Positions 1 through 47,573 are shown, counted from the first letter of the stretch. The stretch: DNA of 60,525 bases from an uncultured Gammaproteobacteria bacterium (GCA_964388785.1 CAYMBX010000001.1:1-60525), one strand, 5' to 3'. Made by a program: numbers and translations. The notes: generated by a model not told the origin, from the sequence alone.

Positions 1-1244
1 AGTCGCAACTGAAAAGCTATCAAGACATCCAACCGGTCATTTCCAAAGCGAACATCACCGACATCATGACAGTCGTTATGGCCGCCGCGCTTCAGTTTGG
101 AACGAGCGATGTACACATTGAGGCCGAGCAAGAAAAAATTGCGGTGCGTTTTCGTATCGACGGGGTTCTGCAAGAAGTCGCAACCCTTCCCCATGACGCA
201 TGGAAAAAAATCATCGCGCGCATCAAGTTGATTAGCGGGCTGAAAATCAACGTCACGGAGCGTCCGCAAGACGGACGCTTTACCATCTTCCTTAAAACCG
301 GCGACACGGACGTGCGTGTTTCCACTATTCCAACCACGTGGGGTGAATCGGTGGTGATGCGTATTTTGAAACCGAGCGCCATTAATGTGGAATTTGAACA
401 GCTTGGCTATCGTCCAATCGCCGAACAAAAATTGCTCAGAGAGATCATGAAACCGCACGGCATGGTCATGACCACCGGTCCAACGGGATCCGGTAAAACC
501 ACCACGCTGTATGCCATCCTTCGCAAGCGCAATACACCTGACGTGAAAATCGTCACACTGGAAGATCCAATCGAATACAAACTGGAAGGCATTAACCAGT
601 CGCAAATCGATCACTCGAAAAATTATACATTTGCAAACGGATTGCGTTCGATTCTGCGCCAAGACCCGGATATTGTCATGGTTGGAGAAATTCGTGATCT
701 TGAAACGGCAGAAGTCGCGATCAACGCGGCGCTCACCGGACATCTCATGCTTTCCACACTGCACACCAATGATGCTGCCGGAGCAATCCCCCGTTTTATC
801 TCCATGGGAGTCAAACCCTTTTTGCTCTCTCCAGCGCTCAACGCGATCATCGGACAACGTCTCTCAAGACGCGTATGCGAAAAATGCAAAGAGGTCGTCA
901 CGCCGACGGAAAAAGAACTTGCGTTTGTCAAAAAAGTGACGGCAGAAATTCCGGAAACGTCGGGAGAAAAAGTCGCGCCCGAGGCGGAATGGAAATTTTA
1001 CAAAGGGAAAGGGTGTGACGTCTGCAATCAATCCGGCTACAAAGGTCGATTGGGAATTTATGAGATATTGGTCATGAGTGATGAAATCAAAGCAGCGATG
1101 TCAGAATCGATCTCCGAATATCAAGTGCGAGAGCTTGCCAAGCAACAAGGGATGACGACGATGCAACAAGACGGGGTGCTCAAAGTGCTTGACGGCCTGA
1201 CAACCGTAGAAGAAATTTTGCGCGTTGCGGGTGAGGGCGCATAA
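1..1244 (+). CDS. pilB: Type IV pilus / type II secretion ATPase (PilB/GspE family), 5' end cut by the window edge
   Basis: Frame 3 is open from nt 3, so the M at 66 is not the true start. Walker A GPTGSGKTTT. VGEIRD and TGHLMLSTLHTND boxes. C-terminal CEKC...CDVC tetracysteine cluster typical of GspE/PilB. Confidence 0.9.
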   Translation, partial: SQLKSYQDIQPVISKANITDIMTVVMAAALQFGTSDVHIEAEQEKIAVRFRIDGVLQEVATLPHDAWKKIIARIKLISGLKINVTERPQDGRFTIFLKTGDTDVRVSTIPTTWGESVVMRILKPSAINVEFEQLGYRPIAEQKLLREIMKPHGMVMTTGPTGSGKTTTLYAILRKRNTPDVKIVTLEDPIEYKLEGINQSQIDHSKNYTFANGLRSILRQDPDIVMVGEIRDLETAEVAINAALTGHLMLSTLHTNDAAGAIPRFISMGVKPFLLSPALNAIIGQRLSRRVCEKCKEVVTPTEKELAFVKKVTAEIPETSGEKVAPEAEWKFYKGKGCDVCNQSGYKGRLGIYEILVMSDEIKAAMSESISEYQVRELAKQQGMTTMQQDGVLKVLDGLTTVEEILRVAGEGA

Positions 1245-1283
1245 AACAGGGATGCAAATTCGTGATCAACCAACGTTTGGTGA

Positions 1284-1328
1284 GGCACAAAGGCTCGTTC
1301 TGTGAGCTCTCGAACGAGCCTTTGTGCC
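1284..1328. repeat. REP-like hairpin, family 1 (17-bp stem GGCACAAAGGCTCGTTC, 11-nt loop)
   Basis: Perfect 17-bp inverted repeat read directly. A second copy in inverted orientation lies at 52004..52048, with a near-identical core GGCTCGTTC-N11-GAACGAGCC and 9/11 identical loop bases. Confidence 0.8.
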
Positions 1329-1378
1329 GTATCGGGATTGGACGTGCAGTAATATCACACCCAACTTTCAACCTGACA

Positions 1379-1446
1379 GACGATGTGGGTGTGCCGGAGG
1401 GAACAACGGCGACAGTCCGTTGGCCCGGAGGCATACCCACATCGTC
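1379..1446. repeat. REP-like hairpin, family 2 (core GCCGGAGGGAACAACGG-N7-CCGTTGGCCCGGAGGCA at 1393..1433 inside an outer stem GACGATGTGGGT)
   Basis: Outer inverted repeat 1379-1395/1430-1446 with one mismatch. The core recurs at 17744..17785 and partially at 19282..19296. Confidence 0.75.
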
Positions 1447-1479
1447 CACAAGCGTTGAGTAAAAAAACACCAGGTGCGC

Positions 1480-1776
1480 TCAGGCTACCTGGCAAGGAGG
1501 GAATCCGTCGAGATCAACTGTGAAGATATCCGGCGCGCCGTGTGCCTCAGGTGCGCACATGGGACATCCGCTCTCATCGAAACGCAGGACGACTCCCGCG
1601 CGATCGATGGTGAGACCGGCCTGAGCGAACAGCTCGGCAGCGGTCTCCAATCTGAGATCCATGCGTCCGCGGCAGCGGACGCAGTACGTTCGAACCGCAT
1701 CCGGATGGGCGCATTCCCTGCAAATCAATACCCGATCGGAATGTCGCCCGTTGTGATCGCAAACCGCGCATCGCAT
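1480..1776 (-). CDS. Small cysteine-rich (multi CxxC, zinc-ribbon-like) protein, function unknown
   Basis: 98-aa ORF with CAVC, CREC, CVRC and CPMC pairs. GGGAGG Shine-Dalgarno 6 nt upstream of the ATG. TTGACA-N17-TATTGT promoter at about 1800-1830 (minus strand). High GC. Confidence 0.6.
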   Translation of the reverse strand: MRCAVCDHNGRHSDRVLICRECAHPDAVRTYCVRCRGRMDLRLETAAELFAQAGLTIDRAGVVLRFDESGCPMCAPEAHGAPDIFTVDLDGFPPCQVA

Positions 1777-1834
1777 GTCACACCTCCCAAAATGGGAGCT
1801 CTACAATACATCAAAAAACCAATTTTGTCAATTC

Positions 1835-1866
1835 AAAAACCGTCTCTCTTCACGAAGACGGTTTTT
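1835..1866. terminator. Bidirectional rho-independent terminator
   Basis: AAAAACCGTCT-loop-AGACGGTTTTT immediately downstream of the 1873..2418 gene. Confidence 0.75.
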
Positions 1867-1872
1867 ATATTC

Positions 1873-2418
1873 TCACGCCGCCAACCGATCTTGATCCCGA
1901 ATAACGCTCGCAACCTGCTGACCGTACTCTTCCGCTTGAGCAATAAACCTATCCTCATCTTCGGACGGATCACTTATTTCCGGAATAATGACGTCTGCCT
2001 TCCACGCATCTTTATTTGGATTTTTTGTCACGTCCACCGTGACCACAATACGTCGACCATCAGCTGTTTCATATTCGATCCATCCATCAATTCCATGGAA
2101 CTGATCAGCGGGCGTTTCCACGGCCGTATAAAACTTAACGCGATCCATCTCCTCCTCCGTTTCCAAGCCCAATGCCTCGATCACGGCTAAACGCAATTCG
2201 TTGGCAAATGGTTTATCGGGATTCAATGGATCTTGGGTTCCATGTTTGCGCACCAAATCGAGTGAGGCTTCATAACCGACATATCCGGTCTCTTTTGCGA
2301 CCGCACGATAGGCCTCACGAAATTTTGGTGTGGGTTTGAATAAACCAAACACATCACGTTCGTTCATTTTGCCCGTATAAAAATCACCCGGTCCACGATG
2401 TGAATCAAATCTACTCAT
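1873..2418 (-). CDS. Hypothetical protein
   Basis: 181-aa ORF that overlaps the tsaE stop by 4 nt, suggesting translational coupling. No motif recognised. Confidence 0.6.
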   Translation of the reverse strand: MSRFDSHRGPGDFYTGKMNERDVFGLFKPTPKFREAYRAVAKETGYVGYEASLDLVRKHGTQDPLNPDKPFANELRLAVIEALGLETEEEMDRVKFYTAVETPADQFHGIDGWIEYETADGRRIVVTVDVTKNPNKDAWKADVIIPEISDPSEDEDRFIAQAEEYGQQVASVIRDQDRLAA

Positions 2419-2828
2419 AAAATAATGCTTCGATATGAATCTTTCTGCACAAATTCAATTTCATGGTAACCCGATCCGAATCTTGATTCAAGCCATTTCG
2501 GCCATTCGATCAATAACAACGTTGAATCATCAAGATATTCTTCCAGAGTAAGCGGCGTAAGCTCCGACTCGTCTTTCAACCGGTATAAATCCACATGCAC
2601 GATTCGTTTGATGCGATCGTGACCGATCGGGTACACATTCACGATCGTAAACGTCGGGCTGCGCACAGGTCCTTCGTATCCAAGCGCGTGGGCAAGTCCT
2701 TGAACGAATGTCGTCTTCCCACTTCCAAGGTCGCCATGCAAAAAAACAACGTCTCCGCCTGTGAGGCGCTTTGCAAACTCTGTGGCAATGCGTTTTGTAT
2801 CTTCGGGAGTGTGGCTTCTGTATTCCAT
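2415..2828 (-). CDS. tsaE: tRNA threonylcarbamoyladenosine (t6A) biosynthesis protein TsaE
   Basis: GDLGSGKTTFVQG P-loop followed by SPTFTIVNVY, the hallmark TsaE/YjeE pattern. Sits next to tsaD. Confidence 0.9.
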   Translation of the reverse strand: MEYRSHTPEDTKRIATEFAKRLTGGDVVFLHGDLGSGKTTFVQGLAHALGYEGPVRSPTFTIVNVYPIGHDRIKRIVHVDLYRLKDESELTPLTLEEYLDDSTLLLIEWPKWLESRFGSGYHEIEFVQKDSYRSIIL

Positions 2829-2842
2829 AAGTCTTGTGAGTT

Positions 2843-3847
2843 CTAGGCCAATCGCCTGTTCGCGTCCGCCACAAGAGTCAGTGGATCTGCGGTTTCCCCC
2901 GCTTCATACCGGTAGGCGCCCGCAACCGCGATCATCACTGCGTTATCTCCCGTCAAACTCATCTGTGGGGCATAAAACGCGGTTTCAGGAGACGCCTGTT
3001 GAACCGCGGCAGCAAGCGCTTCTCGCAATTGAACGTTTGCGGCAACTCCTCCCGTCAGGATCACCGAACGTGGCTGAAATTCAGCCAGTGCGCGAACCGT
3101 TTTTGTCACAAGCACATCTACCACCGCTTGCTGAAACGAGGCGGCAACATCAGCAACCCTCATCGGGCTTCCGTCAACATGATTTTTCACCGCCGTCTTC
3201 AAACCGGAAAAACTAAAATCAAAATCTCCGCTCTCGATCATCGGCCGAGGAAACTCGACCGCATCCGTTCTCCCCTCTTTTGCCAACCGTGAAATTTCCG
3301 GACCACCCGGATACGGCAAGCCGAGGAGTTTTGCCACCTTATCAAACGCCTCGCCCGCCGCATCATCGCGCGTCATCCCGATGAGTTCATACTGTCCATG
3401 ATCTTTCATGAAAATCAACTCGGTGTGACCACCTGATACAAGTAAACACAACGCCGGAAATTCCGGATATCCTCCTTCCCCAACCCACACGCTATAAATA
3501 TGCCCTTCCAAATGGTTCACCGGCACAAGAGGCTTGGCCCACGCCCATGCCAAACTTTTTCCAAGTTCGACACCGATCCTGAGTGCAGGCACAAGTCCCG
3601 GCCCCGCCGTCACAGCGATCGCATCAATTCCGGCTCCATCTGGGCTGATTCCCATCTCAGCGAGCAACGGGAAAATATGCTCCGCATGTTCGCGTGCTGC
3701 CACTTCCGGTACCACCCCTCCATATTTCGCGTGTGTCTTCGCTTGTGACGCGAGAACGCTTTTCTCAACCGAAATCCCATCGGCGTCTCTCACGATCAAT
3801 GCCAAAGCGGTTTCATCACACGAAGATTCAATTCCCAAAATTCGCAT
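2843..3847 (-). CDS. tsaD: tRNA N6-adenosine threonylcarbamoyltransferase TsaD (Kae1/Gcp family)
   Basis: N-terminus MRILGIESSCDETALAL, NHLEGH motif, SGGHTELI and typical length (334 aa). Confidence 0.95.
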   Translation of the reverse strand: MRILGIESSCDETALALIVRDADGISVEKSVLASQAKTHAKYGGVVPEVAAREHAEHIFPLLAEMGISPDGAGIDAIAVTAGPGLVPALRIGVELGKSLAWAWAKPLVPVNHLEGHIYSVWVGEGGYPEFPALCLLVSGGHTELIFMKDHGQYELIGMTRDDAAGEAFDKVAKLLGLPYPGGPEISRLAKEGRTDAVEFPRPMIESGDFDFSFSGLKTAVKNHVDGSPMRVADVAASFQQAVVDVLVTKTVRALAEFQPRSVILTGGVAANVQLREALAAAVQQASPETAFYAPQMSLTGDNAVMIAVAGAYRYEAGETADPLTLVADANRRLA

Positions 3848-3930
3848 AACGCGGCAACAATATCACACTCTCAAATCCTTGAAAAACAAGTCCTGTGAAA
3901 TTTTAGCCGTTTATCGCAAGCCGAAGCGAT

Positions 3931-3961
3931 GACAGTGATCGAACGTGATTCGATCACTGTC
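3931..3961. repeat. Perfect 13-bp inverted repeat (GACAGTGATCGAA-cgtga-TTCGATCACTGTC)
   Basis: Read directly in the tsaD / phosphotransferase divergent intergenic region. Confidence 0.7.
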
Positions 3962-4042
3962 GAGCGAGGCGATGCGATCTGGGTTCCTCCCAGATTAAGT
4001 CCTGTTTCATCGTGTGAAGACTCTATGGTATAAACGAGGTAA

Positions 4043-5074
4043 ATGAGCTACCCACGGCATAAATCGGCCATTCCATTTGGGAACATGACCGCCTTGATTG
4101 AGGATCTGTTTTCGGTTGGCCGGGTTTTGGGCTTTGAAGATGTGCGCACAGGGCTTCTCAGTGAAAACCATAAGGTCAATACGTCTGTTGGCCCATTTTT
4201 TTTGAAACGCTACCGCGACCGAATGAACACGGTCATCCATGAAATCAAAACGGCGGAAGCCTACTTTGCTCACGCAAACATTCCGATTATTCTCCCAATC
4301 AAAGACCGATTCGCGCGGGAGGCCTTTTGGTGTCGCGGAAGTTGGTATTCCCTTTATCCATTTATCGATGGCCATACGCCAAGCTATGGAGATTTGACGC
4401 CGCCGCTTCTTGAACACATTGGATCATTGCTCGCACGCATCCATGTGGCGGGAGATGCGTTTCGTGCAAGACCGTTTCAAATCATCCGACTTGGCAATCC
4501 GCGCAAACTCCACATGGAACTTACGGAGCTGCGTTATCTGCTTGGGAAAAAACCGACGATCAGCGAAGAAGAACGTGCTCTACTTGAACTGCTTGATCTT
4601 AAAAAACGCGCGGCAAAACAAATCGAAACAACAATCGATCCTAGTGTTTATGCCTATGTGTCGCTGCTTCACGGTGATTTCCAGTATTACAATCTGTTCA
4701 CTCATGAAAACCACGTCACGCACGTTTACGATCTTGAACGTACTGCCCTGGGACCGACGAGTTATGAATTGATCCGTGCCCTCCTTCTCGATTGTTTCGA
4801 AGCGGGATGGGATGAAGAATCGTTTGATCGCGCCGGAGTTTACCTGCGCGCCTATCGGGAGCACAAAACGGTTTCGCAAGATGAGTTATATGCCGCCCTG
4901 CGTCTCTACCTCTATAACATCACACACACCACCTGGCTTGAAGCAAGCCATGTCATCTTTGGATCAACACGTCCATTCGCCGTGTTACAAAACCAACGCA
5001 ATCGCATCGCCTATCTGTCTACGCACGATTTGCGAGAATTCGCTGAACGCTTGGATAAAAAAAGCCGGGGGTAA
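4043..5074 (+). CDS. Phosphotransferase of the APH / choline-kinase / homoserine-kinase type II family
   Basis: LLHGDFQYYNLF catalytic-loop motif (HGD...N) and downstream YDLERT. 343 aa. Confidence 0.7.
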   Translation: MSYPRHKSAIPFGNMTALIEDLFSVGRVLGFEDVRTGLLSENHKVNTSVGPFFLKRYRDRMNTVIHEIKTAEAYFAHANIPIILPIKDRFAREAFWCRGSWYSLYPFIDGHTPSYGDLTPPLLEHIGSLLARIHVAGDAFRARPFQIIRLGNPRKLHMELTELRYLLGKKPTISEEERALLELLDLKKRAAKQIETTIDPSVYAYVSLLHGDFQYYNLFTHENHVTHVYDLERTALGPTSYELIRALLLDCFEAGWDEESFDRAGVYLRAYREHKTVSQDELYAALRLYLYNITHTTWLEASHVIFGSTRPFAVLQNQRNRIAYLSTHDLREFAERLDKKSRG

Positions 5075-5080
5075 GCCCAG

Positions 5081-5869
5081 CTAATAGATACGAACCGGGT
5101 TGTGCAGCAAGCCGACCGTCGTCCGCTTGTACTGTCTGAGGCTGGTCGTCGTGTGGTTGACGACGAGGGAATGCTCTTGCGCCGCAAGCTCGCCGAGCGT
5201 GAAATACTGAGCGCTCACGTGCGCCGTGCACATCAGCCGTTCATCGAGCGGATAACCGATCCGATCGTAGAGGCCACAACGGGCCCCGGTATCGGATTCG
5301 AGCGCGTGCTGTTCCTGAGCATCATCGAGCATCGCTCGGGTCTTTGCCCACACACGCTCGGTAAAACCGGGAAACGCCTGCGTGAAGGCGCGAACGCGCC
5401 AATGCGCCGGAACCGTCCGTCTGAGCGCCTTGAGCGTTCCCTTAATGTTTCGTTCGAACATCGAAGAAGAAACGCCGACGACTCCGCGCAGATGCTGGAG
5501 CTCGCGCTCATGGTCCGCAACAAGGACGGTCACATGCGCACCCGGCAAAACGGTCAGTACCCGCTCCACAAAAGGCCGATGCTTTTCAAAGAGTAACGGG
5601 ATCCCCGACCCCATCCGCTCAAAGGTATACGCGCCCTGCGCGTGCGAATAGTCCGGACACACGGGCACGTACAGATGAGCCGGCCACCGGGCAAGGAGCG
5701 CACAGCCGATGCGATAGAGTGCCTGGCGCGAGTGCGACTGTTCGCCGCAGATCGTCACCAGCGCGTGGAGAATGTGCAGCACGTTCCCGACCCGAACTGG
5801 ATCGATGGCGTGCTGGCGAGCGAACTGAGCGAGCCCCTGACGGACTCGCCGCCAGGGAATCGAGCTCAT
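5081..5869 (-). CDS. Hypothetical protein (high-GC orphan)
   Basis: 262-aa ORF with GAGGAG Shine-Dalgarno 8 nt upstream. Convergent with the phosphotransferase gene with only 6 nt between stops. Contains VPVCPDYS but I cannot place the family. Confidence 0.55.
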   Translation of the reverse strand: MSSIPWRRVRQGLAQFARQHAIDPVRVGNVLHILHALVTICGEQSHSRQALYRIGCALLARWPAHLYVPVCPDYSHAQGAYTFERMGSGIPLLFEKHRPFVERVLTVLPGAHVTVLVADHERELQHLRGVVGVSSSMFERNIKGTLKALRRTVPAHWRVRAFTQAFPGFTERVWAKTRAMLDDAQEQHALESDTGARCGLYDRIGYPLDERLMCTAHVSAQYFTLGELAAQEHSLVVNHTTTSLRQYKRTTVGLLHNPVRIY

Positions 5870-5962
5870 GTCGCAATCTCCTCACGTAACCTCCGGGGAC
5901 GAAACGGAGCTGGTTTGCCCAAATATAAAGACCACGCTTTTTTAAACTCGTCAAGGGGCCAT

Positions 5963-6748
5963 TCAAGAAGTGGAGGCTTCCCACAGCCCGTCAAATAAGG
6001 CGGAGAAAAATTGGTGGAGCTCTTTCGATTCGATCAAAATTGCAGACAGAGATTTGTATGAAGAGATAAACACAACAGTCTCATCAAATAAAATCATCAC
6101 GGTTTTGAACTTTCCGTGCATCACAGGCGGCAGATAGCGGGGATTGCGCTCAGCCAGAATCTCGGGGGTAAGCGGTTTACTGGCTGGCGTTTTTTTATCT
6201 CCGTTTGGCGATCGTTCCCAAAGTGAACGGGAAACGATTCCGCGTTTCTTGCGCGCGGAAAGATAATACTGAGCGTAATCCGGATCGAACTCTGAAAAAA
6301 AGTTTTTCCGTGGTGCCAAAATATCCCACGTGCGTGAACGGCAATAGAGCGCTTCTTCGACAACCAATTTCACGCCTTCGATACCTTGGAACTGTTTAAC
6401 TTCAACCGAGCCTCCACCCGTTTGTTGTTGTTGTGCAACAAGCCGCCCAGCTAATTCTTCCAAACCGGTTTTCTGCTTTTCCAATAGTTCGATTTTTGCA
6501 TCCAATAAATGGCCGATTTTTTCCGGCGATGTCATGGTGAATACGCAGCGCGCGCCGGTTCCCTTTTTTGACGCGAGTCCTTTTGTAAGAAGCGTTTCAA
6601 GCGCATGATAAACCGTTGGCCGTCTGATCTGCGTCTGTCGCGCAAGATCACTTGCCGCAATTCCTGGATGACCGAGTCCCGCGAGATAAATGGTTGCCTC
6701 GGTCTTGGAAAGTCCGAGTTGTTGAAGCGTATTGAGTGGTTGAGTCAT
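5963..6748 (-). CDS. TrmB-family transcriptional regulator
   Basis: N-terminal wHTH LGLSKTEATIYLAGLG...RRPTVYHALETLLTKGL plus a coiled segment and C-terminal domain. Paralog at 46794..47573. Confidence 0.8.
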   Translation of the reverse strand: MTQPLNTLQQLGLSKTEATIYLAGLGHPGIAASDLARQTQIRRPTVYHALETLLTKGLASKKGTGARCVFTMTSPEKIGHLLDAKIELLEKQKTGLEELAGRLVAQQQQTGGGSVEVKQFQGIEGVKLVVEEALYCRSRTWDILAPRKNFFSEFDPDYAQYYLSARKKRGIVSRSLWERSPNGDKKTPASKPLTPEILAERNPRYLPPVMHGKFKTVMILFDETVVFISSYKSLSAILIESKELHQFFSALFDGLWEASTS

Positions 6749-6774
6749 AGATATGGGTCAGTATAGCATTCGTG

Positions 6775-6806
6775 AAAAGAAAAAAACGAACGGCAAAGCG
6801 TTCGTT
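6775..6806 (-). terminator. Rho-independent terminator of the RNA ligase gene
   Basis: AACGAACG-loop-CGTTCGTT overlapping the stop codon, followed by a T-run on the minus strand. Confidence 0.75.
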
Positions 6807-8028
6807 ATGGTTTGATCGGGAAGGTGTGATGACCCTCCGCGAAGGCGAGGAACTCGCGACAGATCCCTCGGTAGTACTGCGTGGACTGCTCCGGCGGCAC
6901 CAGTCCGTAGAGGTACTGTCGCCTTTCCTTGATGGTGCCGGACATGAACAGCACGCGCATGATCCGACCGAGCATCTCGTTGGCGCCGGTCACAATCTCG
7001 GCGTCAAGCGTGGAGAGCATCCGGTGCAGGCTTCCGCCCATGATGCGTCGCATGAGGTACGACGGCGACAGCTTCGCCGCGACCATGAGTTGAATGTACG
7101 TTGCGTACTTCACCTTCACGCGCGTGTCGCCGATGCGCAGGACAAACCCCTCCTTGTTGCGCACGCCTCGATCCTTCATGTGCTCGATGATCGCACGCAG
7201 CTCGCCCGCCGACGTTCGCCGGCGCGATGCAAGCGTGTCCAGAACGGAAGCGGGGATCTGCGGATCTGCAAACGGGATCGACAGAGCGTTCGCCATCTGC
7301 TGAATGCGAGCCGGAGAAGCGTCCTCGAGAGTGACGCGATTGAACGCGCCGGTCATCACGAACCCGTGCTGCGCTTCCGTATACTCCACATGCACTTTTG
7401 TGGACGGATGGATGATCTCGACCGTCACGGTCCAGTCCTCGGGGAACGTGCGCTTCCAGCCGTCTCGGGCATGACGCTGCAGCATGGGAGCGGCGAGCAT
7501 GGAAGTCGGGCTCTGGAACCGGCCACGCGTCGTGATGAGCAACTCATCGCGGTAGGAGAAGATGATGCCAAGATGGCCGTCGAGCTTGTCGCTTGCAAAC
7601 CATTCGAAGTCGTCCGGCTGGTCGGCGAGGAGGGCGTCGAGCTGCGCTTCGGGATGTTCTCCCAGGTTGAAGAACTTGGGAAACGGATGCGCGAGTAGAT
7701 TCCCATGGTGGTCGAAGACGATCCCTCGACACATGCGCAAGGCATTGGTCCAGCCCTGCGGGTATGCATGAAGGGTGTTGTGCGCGACCGTCGAGTAGTT
7801 GAGCATCACCAGTGGATGGATGGGATGGAAGTCCAGAGCAATGAGGGACGGTAGTGCCGGAACCCCTTGCGTGAACGGATACGCGAAACGTTCCGTCATC
7901 CAGTCGATATTTCCAGCGTCTTTGCGCCAGATTTTGTACGCGTCGCGACTGAGCGCGCCGTCATCACGAAGCCGGCGAACGAATTGGCTCAGACGCTCGA
8001 TTCCTTCTCTACGTGCCTCGATCTTCAC
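6805..8028 (-). CDS. ATP-dependent RNA ligase (T4 Rnl1-like nucleotidyltransferase)
   Basis: CRGIVFD and PFPKFFNLGE upstream of motif I SDKLDGHLG (the KxDG lysine). EGFVLRIGDTRVKVKY matches motifs IV/V. GTG start with GGAGGA Shine-Dalgarno. Confidence 0.75.
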   Translation of the reverse strand: MKIEARREGIERLSQFVRRLRDDGALSRDAYKIWRKDAGNIDWMTERFAYPFTQGVPALPSLIALDFHPIHPLVMLNYSTVAHNTLHAYPQGWTNALRMCRGIVFDHHGNLLAHPFPKFFNLGEHPEAQLDALLADQPDDFEWFASDKLDGHLGIIFSYRDELLITTRGRFQSPTSMLAAPMLQRHARDGWKRTFPEDWTVTVEIIHPSTKVHVEYTEAQHGFVMTGAFNRVTLEDASPARIQQMANALSIPFADPQIPASVLDTLASRRRTSAGELRAIIEHMKDRGVRNKEGFVLRIGDTRVKVKYATYIQLMVAAKLSPSYLMRRIMGGSLHRMLSTLDAEIVTGANEMLGRIMRVLFMSGTIKERRQYLYGLVPPEQSTQYYRGICREFLAFAEGHHTFPIKP

Positions 8029-8087
8029 GATTCCTCCGTTTTTCTTGTCGTGCCAAAGAGCGCGAAGAACCTATCCGAATATGCGGC

Positions 8088-8113
8088 TTTTGTCAATCAA
8101 TTGATTGACAAAA
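8088..8113. promoter_or_regulatory. Perfect 26-bp palindrome carrying back-to-back -35 boxes of divergent promoters
   Basis: TTTTGTCAATCAA|TTGATTGACAAAA. Plus strand: TTGACA(8105-8110)-N17-TATGCT(8128-8133). Minus strand: TTGACA(8096-8091)-N17-TAGGTT(8073-8068). Confidence 0.7.
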
Positions 8114-8157
8114 TGAACAATTTCGTGTATGCTTTTGCGTCGCTTGTGAATTGCGGA

Positions 8158-8194
8158 AAGCCCGAATTTGCAGCGTCCAAGCCCGAATTTGCAG
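8158..8194 (+). repeat. Tandem direct repeat, 2 x AAGCCCGAATTTGCAG (period 21) in the 5' UTR of the 8204 gene
   Basis: Identical 16-mers at 8158..8173 and 8179..8194. The second copy runs into the AGGAG Shine-Dalgarno sequence. Confidence 0.85.
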
Positions 8195-8203
8195 GAGAAA
8201 GAC

Positions 8204-8959
8204 ATGGCTCGTTTTCATGTTTCACGCCAGCCAGGGGGCGACCTGATCACACGTATTCTGGACGACTCCGACGAGCACACTGCGATCGTCGAGCTCGAGA
8301 TCTACGTCGACGATCAGACCGACCAGAAGATCCGCGTAGTCGACAAGATCGAGTGTCCGGACCACTACCAGTCCGGAGGACTCTGTTCGATCTGCGGAGG
8401 CCGGGGCTCAAGCTTCGCGACAAAGGTCAAGATCGCCGGGTTCGAAATTGTGGACGGAGATCTCACGACCGTCCCCGAAGACGGCTGGCTGCGCGGATCA
8501 CTGAAGATCGTGAACGGTCACACCGTGCCAATCGGCGAGTTCGCGATCGACACCAAGCAACGAAAGCGGTTTGGTAGTGGCAACGATGTCATCAACTGCG
8601 ATGGGACATGGCTCACGCTCGCCTACAAGGACGGGCACATCAAAGTTGTTCCTTCGGGAACCATCGGACACACCTTCGCGGCACCCACTACGTCGACGAC
8701 TCAGCGGATGCTCAACCTCGTGATCCTACGTGAGGGCGTCAACATCTTCGTCGACGGCCTCCCGTTCGCGCACGGAAGCGTTCACGGCAACGCCGAGGGT
8801 ACCGAGCTCATGCTCAACACCAGCGGCACTCGGCTGAGAGTCGACACGCACGGCAAACGCGGGATCAAGGTCGATGTCATCCGAGGCGAAACAGTGCTGT
8901 TTTCCATGAAAACCACCGCGCGTACCCTCGAGCTCGACTGGAACGTGGAGGGAAAATGA
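8204..8959 (+). CDS. Hypothetical protein with one DnaJ-type CxxCxGxG zinc knuckle (CSICGGRG)
   Basis: 251-aa ORF starting at ATG 8204 with AGGAG Shine-Dalgarno. Its stop overlaps the next ATG (ATGA). Confidence 0.6.
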   Translation: MARFHVSRQPGGDLITRILDDSDEHTAIVELEIYVDDQTDQKIRVVDKIECPDHYQSGGLCSICGGRGSSFATKVKIAGFEIVDGDLTTVPEDGWLRGSLKIVNGHTVPIGEFAIDTKQRKRFGSGNDVINCDGTWLTLAYKDGHIKVVPSGTIGHTFAAPTTSTTQRMLNLVILREGVNIFVDGLPFAHGSVHGNAEGTELMLNTSGTRLRVDTHGKRGIKVDVIRGETVLFSMKTTARTLELDWNVEGK

Positions 8960-9884
8960 GCAGCATCGATATGAGCATGATCACCGAGCACGGCCTCGTG
9001 ATCCGTGACGAGGAGCGAACACATCGCGTCCTCGTCCGCAAGGACATGTCCCACCTGCTCGGAAAAGATCCGGCGGTGACCTGCCTCAATCCGGACGCTC
9101 CGGAGAACGAGCGGGTCTACCAAAAGGTCTTCACCAAACGTCGCATCTACCTGCCCAGCGAGTACGACCTTGCGGTGACCAATCACCTCAAGGGCAGGTA
9201 CGTCCTCGTGCTCGCGATGAACGGCTACTCGTCCATCAAGCCGGAGCAGTGCGCAGCCTGGGGCATCAAGCCCGGCGCGTATGAGCATGCCTGCCGGAAC
9301 CTCCTCAAGACGGTCTGGGCAACACTCCGCAAGGAGTTCCCCGACCTGGACATCCGGCTCGTCCACGGAAGCTCCGATCTGGGCGTTGACCGAGCGATCA
9401 TCCAGGCAGCCACGGAGCTGCGCCGTGAGACGCTCGGCTTCTCCTGCCCAGAGTATGCATTCTATGTGCCGGACGACGATGACTTCCCGATGTACATTGC
9501 CGCGACCGTCGCGGAGTACTCAGATGCGTTCGTACGCTCCGCCGACGTGCTCATCGCCGCAAACGGCCGGCTGCAGGCCTACCGGATGAACACCTTGTCG
9601 TGTTCGAACACGACAAGGTGTTCATCCCGATCAACGTGCTGCGACTGATCTCGACGCTGGCAGGTCCGCCACCCAAGAATGCGGCAGGCCAAATCGAGGA
9701 TGCGGTCGCGCACTTCGAGCAGCGCCTGCACATGATCGGACAGGACCGTCCGCATGTTCCCGGAACCGTTGCTCACGACAAATGGAAGAGCGCTCTCTGG
9801 GAGCTCGGCGAAGTACTCATCGATGTTTGCCGACATCAACTCGACCCCGAGATCGGTCTCGAGGTTCCCCCTCCGTCCCGCTGA
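8956..9884 (+). pseudogene. Rossmann/SLOG-like protein gene interrupted by a 44-bp palindrome (reads as ORFs 8956..9648 and 9600..9884)
   Basis: Removing exactly 9584..9627 joins frame 1 to frame 3 seamlessly (...ANGRLQAY-P-INVLRLIS...) and gives one ORF of about 294 aa. VHGSSDLGVDRAIIQAA...ADVLIAANG resembles SLOG/YpsA/DprA-type folds (weak). Confidence 0.5.
9584..9627. repeat. Perfect 44-bp palindrome (GGATGAACACCTTGTCGTGTTC|GAACACGACAAGGTGTTCATCC)
   Basis: Checked base by base: 22+22 nt with no mismatch, centred on TTCGAA, inside coding sequence. Confidence 0.95.
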
Positions 9885-9897
9885 CGGAGGGTTTTTT
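9869..9897 (+). terminator. Rho-independent terminator
   Basis: CCCTCCGTC-ccgct-GACGGAGGG followed by TTTTTT. Confidence 0.85.
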
Positions 9898-9916: not shown

Positions 9917-9956
9917 TTGACAGCATCATTACTTCGTGTGTATACTTACACTAAGT
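9917..9956 (+). promoter_or_regulatory. nrtR promoter (TTGACA-N18-TATACT) with palindromic operator site A, ACTTCGTGT-N8-ACACTAAGT (9931..9956)
   Basis: The -10 box at 9941..9946 lies in the operator spacer. The ATG at 9957 is only 10 nt after the -10 box, so the mRNA is nearly leaderless. Confidence 0.6.
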
Positions 9957-17819: not shown

Positions 17820-19160
17820 TCACGTCCAAGAAAAAAGATCGCCGCCGGTCTTTTTCGAAAAATCGACGTAACGATCAACGAAGTTGATGACGCACGCGGC
17901 GTCTACGTCGCGGTGAAACGCAATGTTGGGTCCGTGTCCGTCGAGCTGCACCGCGTAGATGCCGGGTTCGATCTCGCGCATGTTGGAGGCGGTGTTGAAT
18001 CCACATTCGTTCGAACCGCATTCAAACGGTTTCTGGCTCGCCGTCGGGATCATCTGCTCGCCTTCGCGCGTGAGCGGACAGTGCACATGCACGATCGCAT
18101 GGACCTTGTCAGCAAACCGTTCGTAGATTTGCTGCTGGGTGTGTTCGCCGACCGAGGGTCGAGCGCCCGCCGCGATGATGCTTCCATCCTCATCGCCAAA
18201 GATCTTTGCCATGCCGTCCTCGAGCACACGGTTGTGATCGGTCTTGCGCACCGAACTCACACGTACGTACGGCTCGCCATCGACAAAGCATCCGAAGTGC
18301 CCGCTCGTTTTTCCGAGAAACGATTTGAAGCCGCCACGTGCGATCAGATGCTCGAGCACCGGAACGAAGTTCTGCGGAATCTTGCCCTGCGCATACAGTT
18401 CACGAACATTCGCCCTCTCGCCTTCCCGCATCGTGGTACGCACGAAGGTGAGTTTGGTACGATCTGCGATCATCTCACAAAGCAGATCGAGTGCTTCACC
18501 TCGCGATGAAGTCGCGTACGGAAATTCCTCTGGGGTCACCACGAGGTTCGTGTGACGCACCACGTCGTTTGCGAGCACGAGGTTTGCACTGTTCCTCTTG
18601 AGGAGCTTCAGTCCGCGCGCGTACGTCTCCTGTTCACTCTGTCCGGCCGTCGTTTTGAACGCGACCAGAAAGATGTCTTTGCGCGTACGACGAACCGTTG
18701 TAAGCAACTTCTCGCTGGGAACGATCGTAAGCGTGTGTTCACGATCGGACGACAGACGCGGATGTATGTGCTTGCCGAAGACAGTTGGATCCGTGTAGGT
18801 CGGAGTGATCTGCAATGGTTCGAAATCGCACACGGCCGCGGCAGCGATGATGCAACGCGTCGATGGGTCTGTTGCGAGATGTGTCAGCAGAGCTTCCAAA
18901 TCCTCGTTGGTGACCAGGTCATGGATACCGACTTTCGCGAACAGCTCTTCGTCTTCTTGTGCACGATCCCATCCTCCCTGTGCCATGCGTGTGAGGACCA
19001 GGCGAACTTCCGCGCCCTCGTGCCCGGCCCTGATAAGGGCACCCGGCAGTCGACCTACAAGCTCACGTCCAACTTTGCCGAACGCCGGTGCGGAAAGCGC
19101 GAAATGCGGCGAGACGTGGTTGAACGTTCCACCCGCAATGACGTAATACACACATTTCAT
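17820..19160 (-). CDS. Fusion protein: phosphopantothenate-cysteine-ligase-like (DFP/CoaB fold) N-domain plus class II aldolase/adducin-like C-domain
   Basis: N-domain: VIAGGTFNHVSPHFALSAPAFGKVG and AAAVCDF (compare the CoaB patterns TAGGT..PID and AAAVaDy). C-domain: GKTSGHFG, ARPSVGEHTQQQIYERFADKVHAIVHVHCP, LDGHGPN (class II aldolase pattern PSsE..H..iY...aivHtH). AGGAGG Shine-Dalgarno. Confidence 0.6.
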   Translation of the reverse strand: MKCVYYVIAGGTFNHVSPHFALSAPAFGKVGRELVGRLPGALIRAGHEGAEVRLVLTRMAQGGWDRAQEDEELFAKVGIHDLVTNEDLEALLTHLATDPSTRCIIAAAAVCDFEPLQITPTYTDPTVFGKHIHPRLSSDREHTLTIVPSEKLLTTVRRTRKDIFLVAFKTTAGQSEQETYARGLKLLKRNSANLVLANDVVRHTNLVVTPEEFPYATSSRGEALDLLCEMIADRTKLTFVRTTMREGERANVRELYAQGKIPQNFVPVLEHLIARGGFKSFLGKTSGHFGCFVDGEPYVRVSSVRKTDHNRVLEDGMAKIFGDEDGSIIAAGARPSVGEHTQQQIYERFADKVHAIVHVHCPLTREGEQMIPTASQKPFECGSNECGFNTASNMREIEPGIYAVQLDGHGPNIAFHRDVDAACVINFVDRYVDFSKKTGGDLFSWT

Positions 19161-46793: not shown

Positions 46794-47573
46794 ATGAATG
46801 AATCCCAAAAACAAGAGCTCAAAGAAACTCTTTCTGACTTTGGACTGAATGCAAAAGACCAAATCGTGTATCTTGCTTTGCTTAAAATTGGAGAGACAAC
46901 CCTCTCACCGCTCGCACGAAAAGCCGAGCTTCCGCTCACCACCGTTCAGTCCGTTATGCCACGTCTTGCACAAAAAGGACTTATCCACGTTTCCAAGCGC
47001 AAATCTCGACATCTCTACGAAGCACACGACCCGATGGTCTTCAAAGACATCCTCAAAGAGCAAGCAACCGCAATCGCCATGGCACTGCCGATCCTGCAAG
47101 GAATAAAAAGCAGTGCTCTCTCCGAATCCCGCGTGCGTGTATTTGAACGAGAGCGCATCTCCGAAATTCTGAACGAATCGCTCAAAGCAAAAGATAAATG
47201 TGTGTACGAAATTGTCTCGGCCGGACCGTTTCAAAAACTCCTCGGAGAAAAATATCACTATACCCGTCGCCGCGTTCAAGCGGACGTTTCTCTCAAAAGC
47301 CTGCGCGTTCGATCAACGGAAATCAAAAAATACAACGCACGTACACACCGATCGGAAAAGCGGGAAGCGCGTTTCCTCCCAAAGGAACTCACGTTTGAAG
47401 CGAATATCCTGTTCTGGGATGATACAGTCGCGATCTTGAGCACCAAATCGGAAGGTGTTCATGTCCTGATCAAAAGCAAAAGCATTCGTGTCATGTTTGC
47501 ACAATTGTTCGATTTGCTTTGGTCGGTGTCTGGCAAGATGGAGACGCTGGCAGAAAGTGATGAATCGAAGTAA
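46794..47573 (+). CDS. TrmB-family transcriptional regulator (paralog of 5963..6748)
   Basis: LNAKDQIVYLALLKIGETTLSPLARKAELPLTTVQSVMPRLAQKGL wHTH. Confidence 0.8.
   Translation: MNESQKQELKETLSDFGLNAKDQIVYLALLKIGETTLSPLARKAELPLTTVQSVMPRLAQKGLIHVSKRKSRHLYEAHDPMVFKDILKEQATAIAMALPILQGIKSSALSESRVRVFERERISEILNESLKAKDKCVYEIVSAGPFQKLLGEKYHYTRRRVQADVSLKSLRVRSTEIKKYNARTHRSEKREARFLPKELTFEANILFWDDTVAILSTKSEGVHVLIKSKSIRVMFAQLFDLLWSVSGKMETLAESDESK

What the first reader, a model, noticed from the sequence alone, without database searches (positions are those of the whole stretch)
6805..9884. Rnl1-like RNA ligase divergently paired with a two-gene operon through a perfect 26-bp palindromic double promoter
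The RNA ligase (KxDG, EGFV, KVK motifs) and the 8204/8956 operon are both high in GC. They diverge from a 175-bp low-GC spacer whose centre is TTTTGTCAATCAA|TTGATTGACAAAA (8088..8113). Each half supplies a consensus TTGACA -35 box for one direction, which suggests strictly co-regulated or mutually exclusive divergent transcription. The plus-strand 5' UTR also has two identical 16-mers, AAGCCCGAATTTGCAG, 21 nt apart (two helical turns), with the second abutting the Shine-Dalgarno sequence. Stand-alone RNA ligases are usually parts of RNA repair or anti-ribotoxin modules. Here the partners are a CxxCxGxG-containing unknown protein and a SLOG/Rossmann-like protein, a combination I cannot match to a described system.
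Basis: partly seen in the sequence, partly recalled or inferred. Interest (0 to 1): 0.6.

Follow-up and report, generated by a model that had tools for sequence, protein, structure and literature searches.

The report
RNA ligase beside a decayed NAD-salvage pair
The stretch is not a three-gene RNA-repair system: an ordinary stand-alone RNA ligase happens to share a two-way promoter with a two-gene unit that belongs to the neighbouring NAD-recycling gene island, and one of those two genes is dead.

Summary
The proposed three-gene RNA-repair module is not supported.

- **Ligase (6805-8028, minus strand).** It is intact and groups with Uhrbacteria ligases. About 59 related loci showed no ORF2 or ORF3 nearby.
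- **ORF3.** It belongs to an unannotated ~300-aa SLOG-fold family. In candidate-phyla-radiation (CPR) bacteria this family sits inside NrtR-linked NAD salvage operons in 10 of 13 distinct loci. Here it is a pseudogene. Eleven bases copied from the opposite strand replaced 12 bases, which made a perfect 44-bp palindrome, a -1 frameshift and the loss of an invariant Asp.
- **ORF2.** It is very rare, with one other full-length homologue. Its C-terminal domain is fused to ORF3-family proteins elsewhere (hhalign 96%), so ORF2 and ORF3 form the real unit.
- **Palindrome.** It is two back-to-back extended -35 boxes (TTGACAAAA). This layout occurs six times in the genome, each time in an intergenic region, and at the other ORF2 locus.
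- **16-mers.** They are a local 21-bp duplication and are not conserved.

One open lead is that Melainabacteria place this ligase clade directly after NAD salvage operons. The scan had no earlier notes on this from other DNA.

The parts
6785..6806 (-). Intrinsic terminator-like hairpin plus T-run ending the ligase transcript
   Evidence: The scan found 8 pairs followed by TTTTTCTTTT.
6805..8028 (-). Intact Rnl1-family (T4 RnlA-like) RNA ligase of 407 aa, with a GTG start and a GGAGG Shine-Dalgarno sequence at 8033-8037
   Evidence: Pfam PF09511 scores 54.6 bits, T4 Rnl1 in the PDB matches at E 5e-6 and PHROG_562 at 1e-33. The catalytic motifs are invariant in the clade. In the tree it groups 100/99 with Uhrbacteria ligases.
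8068..8096 (-). Leftward promoter candidate: TTGACA (8096-8091), 17 nt, TAGGTT (8073-8068)
   Evidence: Read from the sequence. The -10 box is weak (3 of 6) and the scanner did not call it.
8088..8113 (.). Perfect 26-bp palindrome: two back-to-back extended -35 boxes (TTTTGTCAA / TTGACAAAA) around an 8-nt core, TCAATTGA
   Evidence: It is unique in the window with 0 expected by chance. The same arms and spacing occur at G000:C4:25624 and at L002 4190-4216. TTGACAAAA makes up 64 of the 445 TTGACA sites in the genome.
8105..8133 (+). Rightward promoter TTGACA-17-TATGCT driving ORF2-ORF3
   Evidence: One search scored it 10 of 12.
8158..8194 (+). Two identical 16-mers (8158-8173 and 8179-8194) with a 21-nt period in the ORF2 5' leader, most likely a local tandem duplication
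   Evidence: Searches confirm the repeats. No other copy exists in the genome and L002 has none. The leader fold is no better than shuffles (z 0.47) and Rfam gave no match.
8204..8959 (+). ORF2, 251 aa: an N-terminal domain with a Cys-His-Cys-Cys motif (C51, H54, C61, C64) plus a C-terminal beta-rich 'FVDG' domain (about aa 167-251)
   Evidence: It has one full-length homologue among 5.8 billion clusters and five short N-domain relatives among 1.84 billion representatives. The C-domain is homologous to the N-terminal extension of long ORF3-family proteins (BLASTP 3e-4; hhalign 96.3%, E 1.5e-9; HMM hits).
8956..9884 (+). ORF3, a pseudogene of a ~300-aa SLOG-fold family typical of CPR NAD salvage operons. 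It reads in frame 1 to 9648 and frame 3 from 9600.
   Evidence: There are 108 homologues. The family consensus across the break is ANGRLQAYRMDIxAVFEHDKVFIPINV. The model and fold search are, and the operon context.
9584..9627 (.). Perfect 44-bp palindrome made by a templated patch. The 11 nt at 9589-9599 (AACACCTTGTC) are the reverse complement of 9611-9621 and replace the ancestral 12 nt (GACATCnnnGCC, coding 'DIxA').
   Evidence: One search shows the perfect palindrome. One search shows the homologue DNA, for example L003...CGGATGGACATCCACGCCGTGTTCGAGCACGAC... The change gives a -1 frameshift and removes the invariant Asp (D219 in alignment A3).
9869..9891 (+). Intrinsic terminator ending the ORF2-ORF3 transcript, just before the nrtR promoter (9917-9946)
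   Evidence: One search found 9 pairs, 7 of them G-C, followed by TTTTTTATTA.

Best explanation
The region is a junction of two functionally separate units that share a bidirectional promoter region.

**Leftward unit.** An intact, stand-alone Rnl1-family RNA ligase is made from its own promoter, Shine-Dalgarno sequence and terminator. From established Rnl1 chemistry I infer that it is ATP-dependent and seals 3'-OH/5'-PO4 RNA breaks through a lysyl-AMP intermediate. Its clade lives in CPR bacteria and Melainabacteria. In the closest relatives (Uhrbacteria) it sits in a housekeeping row, rplI-pyrG-ligase-...-rpmA, so its position here is a lineage-specific relocation.

**Rightward unit.** A translationally coupled ORF2-ORF3 pair forms the upstream edge of the NrtR/NAD salvage island.
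- ORF3 belongs to an uncharacterised SLOG-fold family. In CPR bacteria this family is a regular member of nrtR-pncA-X-NMNAT/NADK-pncB-prs-nadE operons.
- I infer that ORF3-family proteins bind or cleave a pyridine or ADP-ribose nucleotide. The most likely reaction is LOG-like N-glycosidic cleavage of NMN or NaMN, yielding nicotinamide for PncA and ribose-5-phosphate for Prs.
- In this genome, which has no detectable pncA, ORF3 has been killed by a quasi-palindrome template-switch mutation.
- ORF2 is a rare zinc-motif protein. Its C-terminal domain is fused to ORF3-family proteins in other CPR bacteria, which marks it as an accessory partner of the SLOG protein.

**Palindrome.** The 26-bp palindrome is two outward-facing extended -35 boxes 8 bp apart, a recurrent divergent-promoter layout in this genome.

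Shown here: gene identities, fold, contexts, the lesion and the promoter recurrence. Inferred: all biochemical activities and actual transcription.
For: **Ligase identity and contexts**
- The ligase is sporadic: 3 of 100 relatives and 1 of 400 sampled genomes of the phylum carry it.
- Its neighbours differ between genomes.
- The rplI-pyrG-ligase row appears in four Uhrbacteria-type contigs.
- The tree places the window ligase with those Uhrbacteria ligases at 100/99 support.
- No ORF2 or ORF3 lies within 10 kb of about 59 clade ligases.

**ORF3 family**
- It has 108 homologues and no Pfam or NCBIfam model.
- The AlphaFold model scores pLDDT 92. Foldseek gives LOG, PpnN, Moco-carrier and TRPM SLOG hits from E 3.5e-5, with probability 0.99-1.0.
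- NAD salvage genes flank it in 10 of 13 distinct loci.

**ORF3 lesion**
- document the lesion in the window.
- Independent lesions occur in L002 (about 80 codons deleted plus a frameshift) and in G071 (in-frame TGA).
- tblastn found no pncA in the genome.

**ORF2-ORF3 link**
- The genes overlap by ATGA.
- The two genes are neighbours again in L002.
- The domain fusion is supported.

**Promoter layout**
Against: - The ORF3 family lacks the LOG catalytic signatures. It has AANGRxQAxxxD in place of PGGxGTxxE, and HGxSDxGVD in place of GGGxGxMG. It could therefore be a ligand sensor rather than a hydrolase.
- In Obscuribacter the family is not next to NAD genes.
- L002 has pncA yet also carries a broken ORF3, so the link between pncA loss and ORF3 decay is weak.
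- ORF2 stays intact in both genomes where ORF3 is dead, so it does not depend on ORF3.
- Only one other ORF2 locus exists, so its neighbourhood statistics rest on n=2.
- The structure model of ORF2 failed (pLDDT 36).
- The leftward -10 box is poor.
- In Melainabacteria the same ligase clade lies directly after NAD salvage operons. Ligase-NAD adjacency may therefore not be pure chance.
Confidence: 0.65

Rival explanations
1. One reading: ligase, ORF2 and ORF3 form one co-regulated three-gene RNA-repair or anti-ribotoxin module under a palindromic double promoter.
For: The genes are physically adjacent and share a promoter region. All three have high GC. Stand-alone RNA ligases often work with end-healing partners, and RNA repair is linked to NAD through KptA or sirtuins (PMC9503650 section 3.7.3).
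Against: The linkage is seen nowhere else. In L002 the same ORF2/ORF3 pair exists without a ligase. ORF3 is a pseudogene here. No kinase, phosphatase, KptA or RtcB gene is adjacent and PADLOC gave no hit. The ligase's closest relatives lie in a housekeeping row.
Confidence: 0.05
2. The ligase is functionally tied to NAD metabolism, so its place beside the NAD island is not accidental. It might use NAD+ as AMP donor, run the reverse reaction with NMN, or belong to an RNA-repair route that consumes NAD+.
For: In 11 Melainabacteria loci the ligase directly follows NMNAT/NAPRT-prs-nadE/pncA on the same strand. In most of these an Exo_endo_phos gene follows within about 2 kb (PF03372, 27.5 bits). 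The ligase family and the ORF3 family share the same unusual CPR plus Melainabacteria distribution. In the window the ligase is 1.9 kb from nrtR.
Against: All NAD-linked ligases fall in one Melainabacteria clade, so this may be a single inherited arrangement. None of about 35 other CPR ligase loci has NAD genes nearby, and one case in 36 is about what chance gives in a 1-Mb genome. The genome has no KptA/Tpt1. I found no sequence feature suggesting NAD+ use.
Confidence: 0.15
3. The perfect 26-bp palindrome is mainly an operator for a dimeric regulator, for example the TrmB-like protein at 5963-6748, that controls both directions. It would not be just two -35 boxes.
For: The 8-nt core TCAATTGA is itself palindromic, which happens by chance about 1 time in 256, and no other back-to-back site has this. 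A TrmB-like regulator lies one gene away. Another back-to-back site lies just upstream of a TrmB paralogue on contig C18.
Against: In L002 and at C4:25624 only the -35 arms are conserved, not the core. The arms equal the genome's general extended -35 motif. L002 has no TrmB gene next to its site. No matching known operator motif was found.
Confidence: 0.15
4. The 44-bp palindrome and frameshift in ORF3 are an amplification or assembly artefact, and ORF3 is intact in the organism.
For: Only one assembly holds this sequence (P0005 on one contig). Polymerases can also switch templates in vitro. Reads could not be inspected.
Against: An 11-nt templated patch inside an otherwise collinear gene is the classic in vivo quasi-palindrome signature (PMC7202029). 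Two related copies are independently broken, which fits decay of this gene in the lineage. A consensus assembly rarely fixes a minority chimera.
Confidence: 0.1

Closest known systems
Bacteriophage T4 RNA ligase 1 (RnlA, Rnl1 family; PDB 2c5u and 5tt6)
   Same: It shares the nucleotidyltransferase core with motifs I, III, IV and V aligned and invariant. It scores above the Pfam PF09511 threshold and matches PHROG_562 at 1e-33.
   Different: It reaches only 25 bits on the NCBIfam equivalog TIGR02308, whose cut-off is 242. The roughly 95-aa N-terminal and 95-aa C-terminal regions do not align to T4. It is cellular (CPR and Melainabacteria), has no adjacent Pnkp, and sits in housekeeping or NAD contexts rather than a phage anti-PrrC setting.
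LOG / PpnN nucleotide 5'-monophosphate phosphoribohydrolases (SLOG superfamily; e.g. PDB 5zbl, 6gfl, 3qua)
   Same: The ORF3-family core has the same Rossmann-like SLOG fold (Foldseek E 3.5e-5 to 1e-3, probability 0.99-1.0, target-normalised TM 0.5-0.59). Glycine-rich loops follow the equivalent strands.
   Different: Sequence identity is 12-17%, and profile searches of the PDB sequences, Pfam and NCBIfam found no match. The LOG motifs PGGxGTxxE and GGGxGxMG are replaced. The family has an extra N-terminal beta-hairpin domain and a C-terminal helical region, an optional FVDG domain, and a fixed place in NAD salvage operons.
NrtR-regulated NAD salvage operons (Nudix-wHTH regulator with pncA, pncB, nadD/nadM, nadE, prs)
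   Same: The ORF3 family lies next to nrtR and among pncA, NMNAT/NADK, pncB, prs and nadE in CPR loci. The window carries nrtR with its palindromic box at 9931-9956.
   Different: To my knowledge, and in the searches, the described regulon does not include a SLOG-fold member or ORF2. No NrtR box lies in the 8029-8203 spacer.
Quasi-palindrome template-switch mutations (E. coli and yeast hotspots; PMC7202029)
   Same: An imperfect inverted repeat has been converted to a perfect one by copying the complementary arm, which causes a frameshift.
   Different: This case is seen in a natural uncultured genome, as the lesion that inactivates a gene, rather than in a reporter.

Membership tests
Rnl1 (T4 RnlA-like) RNA ligase family | Covalent nucleotidyltransferase motifs: I (KxDG, the AMP-accepting Lys), III (acidic residue), IV (EGxV) and V (KxK) | tested here: met
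   K148-L-D-G, E204, E293-G-F-V and K305-V-K307 align to T4 Rnl1 K99, E159, E227 and K240/K242. They are invariant in 29 clade members.
Rnl1 (T4 RnlA-like) RNA ligase family | Score above the curated threshold of the family model | tested here: met
   Pfam PF09511 scores 54.6 bits against 28.3. The stricter equivalog TIGR02308 is not met (25 against 242 bits).
Rnl1 (T4 RnlA-like) RNA ligase family | Rnl1-type C-terminal helical domain that confers tRNA specificity | tested here: inconclusive
   The alignment to T4 fades after about residue 333.
Rnl1 (T4 RnlA-like) RNA ligase family | ATP-dependent sealing of 3'-OH/5'-PO4 RNA ends | not testable with these tools
   This needs an enzyme assay.
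RNA repair modules (Pnkp-Rnl1, Pnkp/Hen1, RtcB-RtcA, ligase plus KptA or sirtuin) | An end-healing kinase, phosphatase, 2H or KptA gene linked to the ligase | tested here: not met
   The neighbours are a TrmB-like regulator, ORF2 and ORF3. The genome has no KptA and no RtcB. A 2H gene and an AAA_33 kinase lie on other contigs. The APH-like gene at 4043-5074 is also present in ligase-free L002.
RNA repair modules (Pnkp-Rnl1, Pnkp/Hen1, RtcB-RtcA, ligase plus KptA or sirtuin) | Conserved gene neighbourhood across genomes | tested here: not met
   Neither ORF2 nor ORF3 lies near about 59 clade ligases, and no ORF3 locus carries a ligase.
SLOG superfamily (ORF3 family) | Three-layer alpha/beta Rossmann-like fold with a parallel sheet, closest to LOG, Moco-carrier, DprA and TRPM MHR domains | tested here: met
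   The model has pLDDT 92 and pTM 0.90. The top 50 Foldseek PDB hits are all SLOG-type proteins.
LOG family proper (phosphoribohydrolases) | Catalytic motifs PGGxGTxxE and GGGxGxMG | tested here: not met
   The family consensus shows AANGRxQA(Y/F)xxD and HG(A/S)SDMGVD at the equivalent positions. It is therefore a separate SLOG family, and its activity is not established.
NrtR regulon / NAD salvage operon member (ORF3 family) | Conserved co-location with nrtR and NAD salvage genes | tested here: met
   This holds in 10 of 13 distinct loci.
NrtR regulon / NAD salvage operon member (ORF3 family) | An NrtR operator upstream of the gene in this window | tested here: not met
   With up to 3 mismatches, the only match to ACTTAGTGT-N8-ACACTAAGT is at 9931-9956. 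The 8029-8203 spacer has none.
Known riboswitch or leader RNA (ORF2 5' leader with the 16-mers) | Match to an Rfam model, or a fold more stable than shuffles | tested here: not met
   The relaxed Rfam scan gave only chance hits with E above 1. The fold z-score is 0.47.

The most novel reading that the evidence does not exclude
This CPR/Melainabacteria Rnl1 clade may be coupled to NAD metabolism. It could be an NAD+-using or NMN-reacting ligase, or part of an NAD-consuming RNA-repair route. In that reading the unannotated SLOG-plus-FVDG protein family is the missing pyridine-nucleotide N-glycosidase that recycles the products through PncA, PncB and Prs. The window would then show a decayed remnant of one combined 'ligase plus NAD recycling' island.
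Probability: 0.1. Interest if true: 0.75.

Novelty: new variant of a known kind. Interest (0 to 1): 0.4.

Why it matters
The finding as framed, a new RNA-repair system, does not hold, and this saves a false lead. Three things of value remain.

- A well-conserved protein family with no Pfam or NCBIfam model (108 homologues, confident SLOG fold) is a regular member of NAD salvage operons in CPR bacteria. These organisms have minimal metabolism and must recycle cofactors, so the family is a concrete candidate for an unassigned step of pyridine nucleotide recycling.
- A domain fusion ties the very rare ORF2 to that family and gives ORF2 its first functional context.
- The 44-bp palindrome is a clean natural example of a quasi-palindrome template-switch mutation killing a gene. 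It corrects the idea that an inserted 44-bp element could simply be excised.

The Melainabacteria row of NAD salvage genes, ligase and Exo_endo_phos gene is an untested lead.

Tried and rejected
- **ORF2 structure.** The AlphaFold model was unusable (pLDDT 36), so no fold search was done.
- **ORF2 family searches.** Pfam, NCBIfam, PADLOC and PHROGs gave nothing significant, and a viral-contig scan gave nothing.
- **Failed alignment scans.** Scans with alignments A3 and A6 failed for lack of conserved stretches. The metagenome scan with A5 gave only 9 loci.
- **ORF3 against solved structures.** A profile search of PDB sequences gave only chance hits.
- **Riboswitch idea for the duplicated leader.** Rejected.
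- **16-mer as a genome-wide motif.** Rejected.
- **NrtR operator in the spacer.** Rejected.
Rejected, because homologues keep 7 codons there and the right arm is native coding sequence.
- **ORF2-like genes in other ORF3 loci.** The unknown proteins in L006 and L003 are not ORF2-like.
- **Co-occurrence of ligase and ORF3 among 100 relatives.** One genome besides this one has both, on different contigs. That is too few, and the genomes are too closely related, to count as evidence.
- **Literature.** Burroughs et al. 2015 on SLOG families is not held.

Full report
**1.

The minus-strand ORF at 6805-8028 (407 aa) starts at GTG with a GGAGG 4 nt upstream.
- It matches Pfam RNA_lig_T4_1 at 54.6 bits against a cut-off of 28.3.
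- It matches PHROG_562 at E 1e-33 and T4 Rnl1 structures at E 5e-6.
- The AMP-accepting Lys motif (DKLDG) and motifs III (EIIHP), IV (EGFV) and V (KVK) align to their T4 counterparts.
- K148, D150, G151, E204, E293, G294, K305 and K307 are invariant across 29 clade members.

The 26-bp palindrome at 8088-8113 is perfect and unique, with none expected by chance.
- Its right half is the -35 box of TTGACA-17-TATGCT.
- Its left half gives TTGACA-17-TAGGTT towards the ligase. I read this from the sequence, and its -10 box is weak.

The two 16-mers are identical and 21 nt apart. The coding parts have GC of 0.59-0.61 and the spacer 0.45. That places the coding parts around the top 5-10% of 2-kb windows in a genome whose median is 0.50. 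ORF2 (8204-8959) overlaps ORF3 by ATGA. ORF3 is split at a perfect 44-bp palindrome at 9584-9627.

**2. The ligase is a stand-alone gene with no conserved tie to ORF2 or ORF3**

The window belongs to a roughly 1-Mb CPR genome. Its ligase groups with Candidatus Uhrbacteria ligases at 100/99 support.

The ligase is sporadic. It was found in 3 of 100 relatives and in 1 of 400 sampled genomes of the phylum.

Its context varies between genomes.
- Four Uhrbacteria-type contigs carry pyrG next to the ligase, and the three read in full show the row rplI-pyrG-ligase-two small genes-rpmA.
- Elsewhere it lies next to IMPDH, next to rplJ/rplL, or among unrelated genes.

I fetched 80 ligase loci with up to 10 kb of flank and searched them with ORF2, ORF3 and the NAD salvage proteins. 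Neither ORF2 nor ORF3 was found near any of the roughly 59 clade ligases.

The genome has no KptA/Tpt1 and no RtcB. A 2H phosphoesterase and an AAA_33 kinase exist, but on other contigs. PADLOC finds nothing.

**3. ORF3 belongs to the NAD salvage island and is dead here**

A read-through version of ORF3 finds 108 homologues of about 300 aa in CPR bacteria, Melainabacteria and one archaeon. None has a Pfam domain, and there is no NCBIfam hit.

An AlphaFold model of a 72%-identical homologue, built with 46 aligned sequences, is confident (pLDDT 92, pTM 0.90). All of its top PDB matches are SLOG-fold proteins: LOG, Moco-carrier protein, PpnN and the TRPM N-terminal domain (E from 3.5e-5). The LOG catalytic motifs are not present, however.

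The family's context is consistent. In 10 of 13 distinct loci it lies inside an operon of the type nrtR-(pncA)-X-NMNAT/NADK-(ARH)-pncB-(prs)-nadE. The exceptions are an Obscuribacter locus and two loci cut by contig ends.

Across the break the family reads ANGRLQAYRMDIxAVFEHDKVFIPINV. Homologue DNA reads ...CGGATG GACATCnnnGCC GTGTTCGA(A/G)CACGAC.... The window has ...CGGATG AACACCTTGTC GTGTTCGAACACGACAAGGTGTTCATCC. The 12 nt coding 'DIxA' have been replaced by 11 nt that are the exact reverse complement of the downstream GACAAGGTGTT.
- This turned a pre-existing imperfect inverted repeat into a perfect 44-bp palindrome.
- It shifts the frame by -1.
- It destroys an invariant Asp.

This is the signature of a quasi-palindrome template-switch mutation (PMC7202029). 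It is not an inserted element.

Two related copies are broken independently. L002 lacks family residues of about 147-227 and is frameshifted. A copy in relative G071 is divergent and carries an in-frame TGA. The genome has no detectable pncA.

**4. ORF2 is very rare and is tied to ORF3 by a domain fusion**

ORF2 has one full-length homologue among 5.8 billion protein clusters (37% identity). A profile search of 1.84 billion representatives adds five short proteins that match its N-terminal domain and one that matches its C-terminal domain. Cys51, His54, Cys61 and Cys64 are invariant, which points to a zinc-binding site. That reading is inference.

The one other full-length homologue lies on contig L002, between an ORF3 homologue and nrtR. 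The outer synteny is the same as in the window (APH-like gene and the 262-aa unknown on one side, nrtR and salvage genes on the other). L002 has no ligase.

The C-terminal 85 residues of ORF2 (motif NIFVDGLPFAHGSVH) are homologous to the N-terminal extension of the 388-394-aa long forms of the ORF3 family.
- BLASTP gives E 3e-4.
- Profile-profile comparison gives 96.3% probability and E 1.5e-9 over 79 columns.
- An HMM of this domain hits only ORF2-type and long-form ORF3 proteins in all fetched DNA and in the whole genome.

In the window the domain sits at the end of ORF2, directly before ORF3. ORF2 and ORF3 are therefore the real functional pair.

**5. The palindrome is a general promoter layout, and the 16-mers are local**

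TTGACAAAA accounts for 64 of the 445 TTGACA sites in the genome, so the 9-nt arms equal the local extended -35 motif.

Outward-facing -35 boxes separated by 4-8 bp occur six times in the genome. All six lie in intergenic regions. Five are flanked by divergent genes, and the sixth is at a contig start with a gene visible only on its right.
- One of them (C4:25624) has the same arms and the same 8-nt spacing.
- So does the site between ORF3' and ORF2' in L002.
- Only the window site has a self-complementary core, TCAATTGA, which keeps an operator role possible.

The 16-mers have no other copy in the genome and are absent from L002. The leader folds no better than shuffled sequence, and no Rfam family matches it. 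I read them as a 21-bp tandem duplication. No NrtR box lies in the spacer.

**6. Most likely working**

Two RNA polymerase binding sites sit back to back. The leftward one makes a monocistronic ligase mRNA that ends at the hairpin at 6806-6785. The rightward one makes the ORF2-ORF3 mRNA that ends at 9869-9891, just before the nrtR promoter.

The ligase most likely does general RNA end-joining in this small genome, which has no RtcB.

The ORF2-ORF3 unit is an accessory part of NAD recycling. From fold and context, I infer that ORF3-family proteins bind or cleave a pyridine or ADP-ribose nucleotide. My best guess is NMN or NaMN phosphoribohydrolase activity that feeds PncA and Prs (about 35%). 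A ligand-sensing role is the main alternative. In this lineage the SLOG gene is decaying while ORF2 is kept.

**7. An open lead**

In 11 Melainabacteria loci the same ligase clade directly follows the NAD salvage operon on the same strand, and an Exo_endo_phos gene lies downstream in most of them. Five further loci keep only the ligase and the Exo_endo_phos gene.

All NAD-linked ligases fall within the Melainabacteria part of the tree. None of about 35 other CPR loci shows NAD genes nearby. This may therefore be one inherited arrangement, and the window's adjacency may be chance. I give a real ligase-NAD coupling about 15%. A published link between RNA repair and NAD exists through KptA and sirtuins (PMC9503650), but the genome lacks KptA.

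**8. Limits**

- The ORF2 neighbourhood rests on two loci.
- No ligase structure was modelled.
- All activities are inferred.
- Searches of this scan's earlier notes returned only notes on this same window.

Noticed in passing
window 9584-9627: The perfect 44-bp palindrome inside ORF3 is a templated patch. The 11 nt at 9589-9599 equal the reverse complement of 9611-9621 and replace 12 ancestral nt. It is not an insertion, and removing all 44 bp would delete seven native codons.
   Followed up: yes
L002 3435-4117 (Logan contig from SRR22388160): The only other ORF2 locus has its ORF3 homologue inverted, so that it diverges from ORF2. That copy is independently broken: family residues of about 147-227 are deleted and the frame is shifted. 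Its divergent promoter region is itself an extended inverted repeat, with 24 of 29 positions matching by my count from the sequence.
   Followed up: partly
L051, L053, L059, L061-L063, L069, L070, L077, L084, L085 (Melainabacteria): The same Rnl1 clade lies directly downstream of NMNAT/NAPRT-prs-nadE/pncA. In most of these loci a conserved 268-aa unknown gene, an Exo_endo_phos gene, or both follow it. Five more loci keep only the ligase plus Exo_endo_phos.
   Followed up: partly
L012/L040, L028/L029, L039, L134 (Uhrbacteria-type contigs): Conserved housekeeping row rplI-pyrG-ligase-two small unknown genes-rpmA. This is probably the ancestral site of the ligase in this family.
   Followed up: partly
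whole genome G000 (C23:94, C1:55952, C14:17312, C18:2900, C1:8091, C4:25625): Six back-to-back outward-facing -35 boxes lie 4-8 bp apart, all in intergenic regions. Five are flanked by divergent genes and one sits at a contig start. TTGACAAAA is the usual extended -35 motif, at 64 of 445 TTGACA sites.
   Followed up: yes
whole genome G000: tblastn found no pncA (nicotinamidase), no NAD kinase domain and no clear PRPP synthetase, although pncB, NMNAT, nadE, an ADP-ribosylglycohydrolase and two Nudix genes are present. The salvage island is a reduced version of the one in its relatives.
   Followed up: partly
window 9931-9956; L002 about 5283-5308: The NrtR-type box ACTT(C/A)GTGT-N8-ACACTAAGT overlaps the nrtR promoter in the window. 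The nrtR upstream region in L002 carries nearly the same sequence.
   Followed up: partly
G071:C8:397-1251 (L130): A divergent ORF3-like copy (29% identity) with an in-frame TGA lies next to NMNAT/NADK-ARH-pncB. This is a third decaying copy in the family.
   Followed up: no
L002 1354-3366: A 670-aa fusion protein combines a CoaB-like DFP domain, a class II aldolase-like region, a GNAT domain and a Nudix domain. It is a longer relative of the DFP-aldolase fusion noted at window 17820-19160.
   Followed up: no
window 5963-6748 and 46827-47531; contigs C18, C25, C31: Five TrmB-like regulator paralogues occur in a 1-Mb genome. One of them (C18:2972) starts just downstream of a back-to-back -35 site.
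   Followed up: no
window 8075-8087: A third, degenerate copy of the 16-mer core (CCGAATATGCGGC against CCGAATTTGCAGC) abuts the left end of the palindrome. It may be chance.
   Followed up: no
window 5081-5869 (minus strand): A 262-aa protein with no family match in Pfam, NCBIfam, PADLOC or PHROGs is conserved (41% identity) at the same position next to the APH-like gene in L002.
   Followed up: no
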